Positions 1 through 17,688 of a DNA stretch of 19,956 bases are shown in pieces. The stretch's first letter is position 1; each line of letters begins with the position of its first letter. Made by a program: the position numbers and the translations under genes. The DNA comes from Armatimonadia bacterium (GTDB taxonomy: Bacteria > Armatimonadota > Zipacnadia > Zipacnadales > UBA11051): NCBI GenBank assembly GCA_039683575.1, contig JBDKRC010000056.1, forward strand, positions 1 to 19,956, read 5' to 3'. Below the pieces are notes generated by a model that worked only from the letters and a program-made list of their open reading frames with translations, was not told the origin of the DNA and searched no databases.

Positions 1-462
1 CCCCTCGCAAGTCCCCACCCATCGCCCCAGGACCTCCCCCGCCCGGCACAGCGCCACCACGCAGACCAACCGCGCGCGCCGCTCCTCCGGTTTGAGACCC
101 TCCAGCTCCCCCAGAAGTTTCGCGATTCGCTCCTCATCATCCCGCCCATAGCGGCTGGAAAACACCCCCGGCCTTCCCCCCAGCGCCTCAACCTCAAGCC
201 CCGAGTCGTCCGCCAAAGCCCAGCATCCACAGAACTCCGCCGCCGCCATGGCCTTGCTGACGGCATTCTCCTCAAAGGTCTCAAACGGCTCCGGCAACTC
301 CGGCACGTCAGCATAGTCCCCGAGCCCCACAACCTCAATGCCTCCCCAACCCGGCTGCCTGTAGGAGCGCTCACCAGAGCGCGATCTGGAGTCGTTGTCA
401 CCGAGCAACTCCCGTATCTCCCGCACCTTCCCCTCATTAGCCGACGCCACCAATAATCTCAT
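1..462 (-). CDS. rdgB: RdgB/HAM1 family non-canonical purine NTP pyrophosphatase (3' end outside window), carrying a REP-derived in-frame insertion
   Basis: Not in the ORF track. Manual translation from ATG at 462 gives MRLLVASANEGKVREIRELLG...ETFEENAVSKA...ALADDSGLEVEALGGRPGVFSSRY, which contains the HAM1/ITPase motifs. The frame is open to the window edge. Confidence 0.95.
   Translation of the reverse strand, partial: MRLLVASANEGKVREIRELLGDNDSRSRSGERSYRQPGWGGIEVVGLGDYADVPELPEPFETFEENAVSKAMAAAEFCGCWALADDSGLEVEALGGRPGVFSSRYGRDDEERIAKLLGELEGLKPEERRARLVCVVALCRAGEVLGRWVGTCEG
346..385 (+). repeat. REP-like element (family A) inside the rdgB coding sequence
   Basis: GTAGGA-GCGCTC-ACCA-GAGCGC-GA at 361-384. 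The stretch 346-385 is 37/40 identical to 16658-16697. Confidence 0.9.
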
Positions 463-6782: not shown

Positions 6783-6856
6783 GTAGGGGCGGACCGTGGT
6801 CCGCCCGCTTGGGGGCACACAACTAAGGCATCGGGCGGACCACGGTCCGCCCCTAC
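6783..6856. repeat. Inverted REP doublet (REPIN-like, family B) between convergent genes
   Basis: Perfect 25-bp inverted repeat GTAGGGGCGGACCGTGGTCCGCCCG at 6783-6807 and 6832-6856. Each arm is a GTAG tetranucleotide followed by a hairpin. Confidence 0.9.
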
Positions 6857-13162: not shown

Positions 13163-13189
13163 CCATAGCCACGCGTCTGAAATACCGAA

Positions 13190-13263
13190 CGCGTAGGTGG
13201 GTTCGTCCCGAACCCACACTATCTCTCGCCACCGCGCGGGTTCGAGACGAACCCGCCTACGCG
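13190..13263. repeat. Inverted REP doublet (REPIN-like, family C)
   Basis: CGCGTAGGTGGGTTCGTCCCGAACCCAC (13190-13217) and an inverted copy at 13236-13263 match 25/28, including a compensatory stem pair. Confidence 0.9.
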
Positions 13264-16649: not shown

Positions 16650-16672
16650 TGCATTCACCAACCCGGCCGCCT

Positions 16673-16832
16673 GTAGGAGCGGTCACCAGACCGCGATTTT
16701 GTTGTGCAACTACGCCGTAGGAGCGGACCGGTCACCAGACCGCGACTTCCTCGGGAGGTAACCCTGTACGAGCGATCACCGATCGCGACTTCGTTGTGTA
16801 ACCACACTGTGGGAGCGGTCACCAGACCGCGA
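16673..16832 (+). repeat. Tandem array of four family-A REP-like hairpins with 20-nt spacers
   Basis: Units at 16673-16696, 16717-16745, 16766-16788 and 16809-16832. Spacers at 16697-16716, 16746-16765 and 16789-16808. Confidence 0.9.
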
Positions 16833-17394: not shown

Positions 17395-17467
17395 CTGAAC
17401 AATTCCCCCGCAGGTATCCTAACCCCTGCAAGGAAACACACTCTCATTGCGTCGAGCAGCCTCTAGT

Positions 17468-17644
17468 CGCGTGGCAGGCATGCTCCGCATGCCGGAACTC
17501 GGCTCAATAGCTCTGCAGGGACGCGTAGGTGGGTTCGTCCCGAACCCACGCCGTTACGACCTCTCGACGCGTGGTAGGCACACTCCGTGTGCCGGAACTC
17601 GTGACGTCCAGTGAGTCCGGCATGCGGAGCATGCCTACCACGCG
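17468..17644. repeat. Composite REP cluster (three family-D copies plus one family-C copy)
   Basis: Family D copies at 17468-17500 (+), 17568-17600 (+) and 17613-17644 (-). The family C copy at 17521-17549 is identical to 13189-13217. Confidence 0.9.
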
Positions 17645-17688
17645 AAGAGATACGCCGCCTCACGTCCGAGTGTTTTCCGTTTTCGCCG

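What the first reader, a model, noticed from the sequence alone, without database searches (positions are those of the whole stretch)
346..402. A REP-like palindrome is translated as an in-frame insertion inside rdgB
Seen: rdgB reads ...RELLG-DNDSRSRSGERSYRQPGWG-GIEVVGL..., and the DNA for SRSGERSYRQPGW (346-385) is 37/40 identical to the intergenic repeat at 16658-16697. Two of the three differences are a compensatory pair that preserves the hairpin (GCGCTC/GAGCGC vs GCGGTC/GACCGC), and the reading frame is intact. Known: RdgB/HAM1 proteins usually have only a few residues between helix 1 and the next strand. REPs are by definition extragenic, while coding palindromic insertions are best known from Rickettsia palindromic elements. 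Inference: a GTAG-type REP inserted into a housekeeping gene and became a surface loop of about 16 aa, so this family may generate new peptide sequence genome-wide.
Basis: partly seen in the sequence, partly recalled or inferred. Interest (0 to 1): 0.85.

Follow-up and report, generated by a model that had tools for sequence, protein, structure and literature searches.

The report
REP repeat translated inside rdgB
A small mobile DNA hairpin repeat has landed in frame inside a nucleotide-cleansing gene of an uncultured Armatimonadia bacterium and adds a floppy 17-residue loop, which is real but is a kind of insertion already described in other bacteria.

Summary
Window 346-385 matches 16658-16697 at 37 of 40 bases. 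It lies in frame in rdgB (minus strand, 462..1).

- **The repeat.** It is a GTAG-headed REP with 122 copies in this genome.
- **The insertion.** It is 51 nt (17 aa, about 340-390). None of 29 relatives' RdgB has it, and none of 30 in a second alignment.
- **The gene is not a pseudogene.**
  - Its 3' end lies on contig C309.
  - A 97% identical, complete 212-aa protein with the same insert exists elsewhere.
  - Two strains that both carry the insert differ by 12 synonymous and 4 non-synonymous codons.
- **Structure.** AlphaFold models are confident everywhere except the insert, a coil between helix 1 and strand 2.
- **Genome-wide.** About 50 of 737 REP copies lie inside ORFs with a coding signature. 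17 of 20 sampled ORFs have Pfam domains.
- **The "compensatory pair".** It is a difference between two abundant sub-families, not a change that arose at this site.
- **Novelty.** Intragenic GTAG REPs were catalogued in 2013 (PMC3733652). This scan has 26 similar notes on other genomes. This is a new member of a known kind, in a new phylum and a new host gene.

The parts
1..462 (-). rdgB (RdgB/HAM1 non-canonical purine NTP pyrophosphatase), codons 1-154. The ORF runs off the contig and continues on contig C309.
   Evidence: The 3' part is at C309:1-~225, with a 51-nt overlap (3 mismatches), an intact ORF and a stop codon. A full-length 212-aa near-identical protein, P0002, exists.
340..390 (-). 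51-nt in-frame insertion, codons 25-41 (SRSRSGERSYRQPGWGG). The boundaries are good to within a few bases.
   Evidence: A 17-column gap in 29 of 29 relatives and in 30 of 30 other sequences. Codon-level comparison. No flanking direct repeat.
346..385 (+). Conserved 40-nt REP unit: a 15-nt 5' arm (CC.cCcCgGCtGCCT), the 24-nt core and a T.
   Evidence: Consensus of the 61 ACCA-loop copies with flanks. 37 of 40 identical to 16658-16697.
361..384 (+). REP core: GTAG head plus hairpin (stem 367-372 / 377-382, loop 373-376).
   Evidence: This exact 24-mer occurs 25 times in the genome.
16655..16832 (+). Intergenic cluster of four REP units of the same or sister families (16671-16696, 16720-16745, about 16768-16790, 16807-16832), between two minus-strand ORFs.
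   Evidence: (D2, D3). No frame shows a coding GC3 signal between about 16700 and 16850.

Best explanation
A copy of a GTAG-headed REP inserted into the rdgB coding sequence of this Armatimonadia lineage. A REP is a small non-autonomous hairpin repeat of the kind associated with RAYT tyrosine transposases. The insertion survived for three reasons: it is a multiple of three (51 nt), it lies in one of the four stop-free frames of the element, and it falls in the loop between helix alpha1 and strand beta2, away from conserved residues. It is read through as a 17-residue Ser/Arg/Gly-rich disordered loop, and the enzyme stays under purifying selection. The same process has decorated about 50 other genes in this REP-rich genome. 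Most genic insertions were presumably removed by selection.

Shown: the insert is present, derived and in frame; it belongs to the family; the gene is intact; selection has acted since the insertion; the loop is predicted to be disordered; other genic copies exist.

Inferred: mobilisation by a RAYT, actual translation, and a near-neutral effect on the enzyme.
For: - **Family.** 122 copies of the core at up to 2 mismatches. Sub-families with covarying stems have 32, 27, 25, 14 and 9 copies. There are 7 Y1_Tnp ORFs, and 3 pass the NCBIfam REP-associated tyrosine transposase cut-off. One RAYT (C338) is flanked by inverted copies of a sister REP.
- **Derived state.** The insert is absent in 29 of 29 relatives and 30 of 30. 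This includes G003 and G004, which carry 56 and 19 copies of the same REP.
- **Intact gene.**
  - The C-terminal part on C309 has FGFDPVF and SHRG motifs and a stop codon.
  - P0002 is 212 aa, 97% identical and has the same insert. It passes TIGR00042 (164.6 bits against a cut-off of 145.35).
  - P0002 keeps all 37 invariant columns of A2.
- **Selection.** A Logan contig of a roughly 95% identical strain carries the gene-REP junction. It differs at 16 codons, 12 synonymous, with 12 of 16 changes at third positions (P = 8e-4).
- **Structure.** pLDDT is 90.8 and pTM 0.86. The only low stretch is residues 22-41 (below 50 at 25-28 and 30-36). The 154-aa model agrees. The fold matches E. coli RdgB 1k7k (TMq 0.76).
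- **Genome-wide.**
  - 58 frame hits, about 54 copies, out of 737 REP copies lie in ORFs with a coding signature on both sides.
  - 17 of 20 sampled ORFs have Pfam hits, as do 6 of 9 in a first batch.
  - MiaB orthologues lack 13-17 residues at the REP site in 11 of 11 cases.
Against: - No RNA or peptide evidence exists. The one metatranscriptome laid on the region covered only the repeat itself and the neighbouring gene.
- No contig in the laid runs spans the whole insert. They break inside the repeat, at 1-381 and 360-466.
- Those runs and P0002 may come from the same study as the MAG, so they are not independent support.
- The cognate RAYT of this exact REP was not found.
- The hairpin is no more stable than shuffled sequence (z = -0.7, -0.1 and -1.5). 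Its support is covariation only.
- The nearest insert-free relative is only about 62-67% identical, so the insertion cannot be dated closely.
- The genome-wide count rests on my own GC3-based proxy for coding, not on a gene caller.
- In GH31 the REP sits in a loop of variable length, and two genus-mates have loops as long without the REP.
Confidence: 0.88

Rival explanations
1. Assembly or binning artefact: the REP was spliced into rdgB by the assembler at a shared repeat, and the real gene has no insert.
For: The genome is a fragmented MAG of 352 contigs. Contigs in public runs break inside this repeat. The contig itself ends inside rdgB, with 3 mismatches in the 51-nt overlap to C309.
Against: Both flanks of the repeat are rdgB, in the same frame and in the right order. 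Separate contigs in two runs pass from the left gene flank into the REP (1-381, 1-373) and from the REP into the right flank (360-466, 357-473). No joint skipping the insert was reported. A separate 1916-nt contig encodes the full 212-aa protein with the insert.
Confidence: 0.03
2. The gene is disabled: the insert inactivates RdgB, or translation starts downstream of it, so the REP-encoded peptide is not part of a working enzyme.
For: There is no expression or activity data. The insert lies only 24 codons from the start. A GTG codon (V45) lies just behind it.
Against: Residues 1-21 upstream of the insert keep the invariant N9, K12 and E15. There are 12 synonymous and 4 non-synonymous codon differences between two insert-bearing strains. 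The ORF is intact to a normal stop. No other Ham1-family hit appeared in the genome with this query; the two extra hits match only the repeat peptide.
Confidence: 0.05
3. The loop is an adaptation: the REP-derived loop or its mRNA hairpin was kept because it changes RdgB regulation, interactions or expression.
For: The insert shows no change between two strains that differ at 16 codons elsewhere in the gene. A second, unrelated repeat occupies the same loop in G021. PMC3733652 reports that many intragenic REPs lie in replication and repair genes (abstract).
Against: Zero changes in about 42 nt is not significant at roughly 5% divergence (about 2 expected). The loop is predicted to be disordered. 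REPs sit in many unrelated proteins here, which fits tolerance better than function.
Confidence: 0.04

Closest known systems
Intragenic GTAG-tagged REPs (Di Nocera, De Gregorio & Rocco 2013, PMC3733652; passages and supplement search read), most numerous in Opitutus terrae
   Same: A GTAG head with a short GC-rich stem-loop. Hundreds of mostly intergenic copies, with sub-families, inverted dimers and RAYT genes in the genome. A minority of units lie entirely within ORFs of known proteins and are read as extra residues. Genome-maintenance genes are among the hosts.
   Different: The host phylum is Armatimonadota, which is not among the phyla named in the passages I read. The host gene is rdgB: 'rdgB', 'Ham1' and 'pyrophosphatase' have 0 hits in the text and in the 4 supplementary files. 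The core sequence GTAGGAGCG was not found there either. The unit carries a conserved 15-nt 5' arm.
Rickettsia palindromic elements (RPE), as described in the MITE review PMC10969869 (passages) and in PMC3733652
   Same: Selfish palindromic repeats inserted in frame in housekeeping genes and tolerated as extra peptide segments.
   Different: RPEs are described as about 150 bp and encode a conserved peptide. R. conorii RPE sequences end in CGTC, not GTAG. Here the unit is 40-51 nt and different copies use different frames.
REP/REPIN-RAYT systems (Nunvar 2010, PMC2817692; TnpA-REP work, PMC8266576; search listing and abstracts only)
   Same: GTAG-headed hairpins, inverted doublets, and Y1 HUH transposase genes flanked by REPs.
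   Different: No RAYT flanked by this exact REP was found in the assembled contigs. The rdgB copy is a singlet, not a doublet.
E. coli RdgB (PDB 1k7k, 2pyu, 2q16)
   Same: Same fold (TMq 0.76, 34% identity) and same family.
   Different: The sequence match to solved RdgB/Ham1 chains splits around query residues 22-42, which have no counterpart.

Membership tests
GTAG-tagged REP | GTAG (or GTRG) tetranucleotide at one end of the unit | tested here: met
   GTAG at 361-364. 122 family copies start with GTAG or GTGG.
GTAG-tagged REP | Short GC-rich stem-loop (stem 5-13 bp, loop 2-20 nt in Table 1 of PMC3733652) | tested here: met
   6-bp stem and 4-nt loop. Stem variants GCGCTC/GAGCGC, GCGGTC/GACCGC, GGGGTC/GACCCC and GCGATC/GATCGC covary. 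Folding energy alone is not exceptional (z = -0.7).
GTAG-tagged REP | Many dispersed copies, mostly intergenic | tested here: met
   122 copies. 8 family copies passed the coding-signature filter; at least 6 of them, rdgB included, lie in ORFs with Pfam hits. Gene calls are my GC3 proxy, not a gene caller.
GTAG-tagged REP | Inverted dimers (REPIN-like) | tested here: met
   At least 7 inverted pairs 23-46 nt apart in G000. 15 of 70 loci in relatives hold an inverted pair. The rdgB copy itself is a singlet.
GTAG-tagged REP | Cognate RAYT gene flanked by the same REP | tested here: inconclusive
   3 ORFs pass NF047646 (118.8, 85.6 and 83.0 bits against a cut-off of 80). The C338 ORF is flanked by inverted GTACGAGCGGCTTCCAGCCGCGA and C102 by GTGGGAGGGGCCACTGGCCCCGA. 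None is flanked by the rdgB-type core. The genome is in 352 contigs.
RdgB/HAM1 (PF01725, TIGR00042) | Profile match above the curated cut-off | tested here: met
   PF01725 scores 117.7 bits against 22.5 for the 154-aa part. TIGR00042 scores 164.6 against 145.35 for the 97% identical full-length P0002. The truncated window ORF alone is below the equivalog cut-offs.
RdgB/HAM1 (PF01725, TIGR00042) | Fold and conserved residues | tested here: met
   Foldseek best match is 1k7k (E 3e-12, TMq 0.76). P0002 keeps all 37 invariant columns of A2. Enzyme activity cannot be tested here.
Rickettsia palindromic elements | Elements of about 150 bp with a conserved encoded peptide and a CGTC end | tested here: not met
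   The unit is 40-51 nt with a GTAG end. Different genes use different frames: SRSGERSY, CRSAHQSA, GRAQGSAPT. RPE features are taken from passages.
MITE | Terminal inverted repeats and a target-site duplication | tested here: not met
   No direct repeat of 3-10 nt at the edges of the 51-nt insert. The only inverted repeat is the internal hairpin.

The most novel reading that the evidence does not exclude
The helix1-strand2 loop of RdgB may be a recurrent landing site for small mobile repeats in this order. Two unrelated dispersed repeats occupy it in two different families (G000 and G021). This could reflect targeting, for example insertion beside a CACCGA[CG]CAAC-like sequence or at a hairpin-prone single-stranded site. 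It could instead reflect selection for altering a nucleotide-pool sanitising enzyme. The latter would fit the reported excess of intragenic REPs in replication and repair genes.
Probability: 0.1. Interest if true: 0.55.

Novelty: new member of a known kind. Interest (0 to 1): 0.3.

Why it matters
- It adds Armatimonadota and rdgB to the list of lineages and genes in which REP-type repeats are read through as protein loops.
- It gives unusually direct evidence that such an insert can persist under purifying selection: two strains both carry the insert and differ mostly at synonymous sites.
- It bears on MAG annotation. Such inserts lower profile scores and break contigs.
- It shows how selfish hairpin repeats feed short disordered loops into proteins.
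- It does not open a new question. The phenomenon has been in print since 2013, and this scan has met it repeatedly.

Tried and rejected
- **Expression.** The one metatranscriptome (X3) covered only the repeat and the neighbouring reductase gene, so it says nothing about rdgB.
- **Cluster members of P0002.** Whether any of the 8 members lacks the insert is unknown.
- **Hairpin stability.** It is not distinguishable from shuffled sequence. I rely on covariation instead.
- **Target-site duplication.** None was found.
- **Tail motif.** ATC[AT][CA]CGACCAAC often follows REPs: 32 of 69 copies lie within 40 nt of a REP, all on the same strand. rdgB has an 11 of 13 look-alike (my own count from the sequence) about 11 nt further from the core than in typical copies, inside conserved native codons. 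I could not tell target preference from chance.
- **GH31 as a second clean case.** Rejected as clean, because the loop is length-variable in homologues.
- **Cognate RAYT.** Not identified.
- **ORFs without support.** L036, L038 and L039 and L152, L156 and L157 had no Pfam hit, so they are not counted as confirmed genes.
- **Literature searches.** 'Armatimonadetes' with 'repetitive extragenic palindromic', and 'Armatimonadota' with 'REPIN', each returned 0 papers.

Full report
**Observation.** rdgB lies on the minus strand from ATG 462 to the contig end at base 1 and gives 154 aa. It matches Pfam Ham1p_like at 7.4e-34 over profile positions 1-135 of 186. The DNA at 346-385 agrees with the intergenic stretch 16658-16697 at 37 of 40 positions, differing at 356, 370 and 379 (D10). 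The 24-nt core pattern GTAGGAGCGNTCACCAGANCGCGA occurs 3 times in the window, and 200 shuffles gave none. Positions 370 and 379 are the two sides of one base pair of a 6-bp stem (367-372 / 377-382) with a 4-nt loop.

**The insert is derived.** I searched 40 related genomes, and 39 of them had a match (40 of 41 with G000).
- I aligned the RdgB ORFs of 29 loci. None has the 17 residues SRSRSGERSYRQPGWGG, and all go from LL[AGS]xxx straight to [VIL]E[VL].
- A second alignment, with a further database protein and three more distant ones, gave the same result: 30 of 30 lack it.
- The insert is therefore 51 nt, about 340-390.
- Matches to solved RdgB/Ham1 chains split around query residues 22-42.
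- G003 (same genus) and G004 (same family) carry 56 and 19 copies of the same REP but have insert-free rdgB.

**The gene is not broken.**
- The window is a whole contig.
- The missing 3' end of rdgB is at the start of contig C309. The two contig ends overlap by 51 nt with 3 mismatches, and the frame runs on through FGFDPVF and SHRG to a stop.
- The protein database holds P0002, a 212-aa protein on a 1916-nt contig. It is 97% identical, has the identical insert and the same C-terminus.
- P0002 passes the RdgB equivalog TIGR00042 (164.6 bits against 145.35) and keeps all 37 invariant columns of alignment A2.
- The next best database hit is only 62% identical, so no close insert-free allele is on record.

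**Support from public runs.**
- In contigs of wastewater metagenomes from one study, one contig covers window 1-381 and another covers 360-466. In a second run the pieces cover 1-373 and 357-473.
- The gene-to-REP junction is therefore seen on both sides.
- No contig spans the whole repeat, and no joint that skips it was listed.
- These runs may be the MAG's own source, so they are not independent.
- The 1-381 contig differs from the window at 16 substituted positions in 16 codons. 12 are synonymous and 4 are not. 12 of the 16 are at third codon positions (binomial P = 8e-4). Its non-synonymous changes match those of P0002.
- Two strains that both carry the insert have thus diverged under purifying selection on this frame.

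**The repeat family.**
- The genome holds 122 copies of the core at up to 2 mismatches.
- The main exact variants are GCGCTC-CCCT-GAGCGC (32 copies), GCGGTC-ACCA-GACCGC (27), GCGCTC-ACCA-GAGCGC (25, the rdgB form) and GCGCTC-CCCC-GAGCGC (14).
It is good covariation evidence for the hairpin, but it did not arise in rdgB.
- In the 61 ACCA-loop copies, conservation covers a 15-nt 5' arm, the 24-nt core and one T. That is 40 nt, exactly window 346-385.
- The rest of the 51 nt is not conserved, and there is no target-site duplication.
- At least 7 inverted pairs occur in G000.
- Exact copies occur in 70 loci of the species collection. 67 of them are in three MAGs labelled Armatimonadota or Armatimonadia. 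This fits earlier notes that call this genome Armatimonadia.
- The genome has 7 Y1_Tnp ORFs. 3 pass the REP-associated tyrosine transposase model, and 3 pass the IS200 model.
- The RAYT on C338 is flanked by inverted copies of a sister REP, GTACGAGCGGCTTCCAGCCGCGA.
- No RAYT flanked by the rdgB-type core was found, so mobilisation by a RAYT is inferred.

**Structure.**
- The 154-aa model has pLDDT 87.7 and pTM 0.81. It is low only in residues 21-40.
- The full-length model of P0002 has pLDDT 90.8 and pTM 0.86. Helix 10-21 is followed by coil, then strand 43-46. The only stretches below 50 are 25-28 and 30-36.
- The fold matches E. coli RdgB 1k7k (TMq 0.76).
- The insert is thus predicted to be a disordered loop between helix 1 and strand 2.

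**Genome-wide picture.**
- The core is stop-free in 4 of 6 frames. This follows from the sequence and is visible in the peptides.
- 8 copies of this family passed a both-sides codon-position GC filter. Of the hosts checked, rdgB matches Pfam and 6 of 9 further ORFs do too. Five of these hold the REP inside the gene: a MiaB-like radical-SAM enzyme (REP inside the Radical_SAM domain), GH31, a GH42-like protein, YfhO, and GH106 with two copies.
- 11 of 11 MiaB orthologues lack 13-17 residues at the REP site. The GH31 site is a variable loop and is not a clean case.
- Across all GTAG, GTRG and GTAC hairpin words with 5 or more identical copies there are 737 non-overlapping copies. 58 frame hits, about 54 copies, lie in ORFs with a coding signature on both sides.
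- The rdgB copy is missed by that filter because its upstream flank is short.
- I picked 20 of the longer ORFs in list order, and 17 have Pfam hits at E <= 1e-4. In several the REP lies inside the matched domain: AMP-binding, DEAD helicase of an MrfA-like protein, PFL-like, GFO_IDH_MocA_C.
- Bacterial genomes are mostly coding (general knowledge, not measured here). About 7% of copies in genes therefore implies strong removal of genic insertions.

**What is known.**
- Di Nocera et al. 2013 (PMC3733652; passages and a supplement search read) describe GTAG and CGTC REPs located entirely within ORFs.
- They list the encoded residues and note that many hosts are replication and repair genes.
- rdgB, Ham1 and this core sequence do not occur in the text or the 4 supplementary files.
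- A 2024 MITE review (PMC10969869; passages) treats in-frame insertions and RPEs as established.
- Two searches linking Armatimonadetes or Armatimonadota with REP or REPIN found no paper.
- This scan already holds 26 notes of the same kind in at least 26 other genomes.
- The finding is therefore a new member of a known kind.

**A second repeat in the same loop.** In G021, a different family of the same order, RdgB has a 21-aa insert three residues upstream of the G000 site. Its 63 nt are bounded by the direct repeat CGGACTGG. It matches 13 other places in that genome at 76-100% identity. Two unrelated dispersed repeats have thus entered the same loop independently. This fits a tolerant loop and leaves a small chance of a true hotspot.

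**Limits.**
- There is no expression or peptide evidence.
- No single read spans the insert.
- The genome-wide count uses my GC3 proxy, not a gene caller.
- The cognate transposase is unknown.
- The members of P0002's cluster could not be listed.

Noticed in passing
L021:1555-1625 (G021:C534:3074-3144): RdgB of a relative in another family of the same order carries an independent 63-nt (21-aa) insert in the same helix1-strand2 loop. It is bounded by the direct repeat CGGACTGG, and its DNA matches 13 other places in that genome (76-100% identity).
   Followed up: partly
window 6783-6856: A perfect inverted pair of another REP family (GTAGGGGCGGACCGTGGTCCGCCCG; 25-nt arms, 24 nt apart), like a REPIN doublet. 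The core word has 24 copies in the genome.
   Followed up: partly
window 13189-13217 and 17521-17549: Two identical 29-nt copies of a third GTAG hairpin family (GTAGGTGGGTTCGTCCCGAACCC; 9 copies of the word genome-wide).
   Followed up: no
window 17460-17650: Three copies, two direct and one inverted, of the GGTAGGCA[TC][GA]CTCCG[CT][AG]TGCC family. Its word is among the most abundant in the genome (58 + 25 copies).
   Followed up: no
window 1-51 and G000:C309:1-51: The assembly breaks inside rdgB. The two contig ends overlap by 51 nt with 3 mismatches in a G-rich stretch.
   Followed up: yes
L144 (G000:C168:3212-6325): One 1038-aa open frame joins a DUF1638 domain (114-300) to hydantoinase domains (390-709), with a REP at residue 349 in between. 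This may be a fusion or a read-through of two genes across a REP.
   Followed up: no
L151 (G000:C182:3919-6513) and L142 (G000:C135:19845-21473): An MrfA-like DEAD helicase, another repair-type gene, has a REP inside its DEAD domain (residue 149). An AMP-binding enzyme carries an inverted REP pair at residues 169 and 186.
   Followed up: partly
genome-wide; in the window about 398-410: A 13-nt tail motif, ATC[AT][CA]CGACCAAC, has 69 copies. 32 of them lie within 40 nt of a REP hairpin, always on the same strand. rdgB has an 11 of 13 look-alike (my own count) in native codons, about 11 nt further from the core than in typical copies.
   Followed up: partly
G000:C338:4691-5475: A RAYT gene (83 bits to NF047646) is flanked by inverted copies of GTACGAGCGGCTTCCAGCCGCGA, a sister family whose core word GTACGAGCGGCTTCCAGCCGC has 30 copies. 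This is a classic REP-RAYT arrangement in Armatimonadia.
   Followed up: partly
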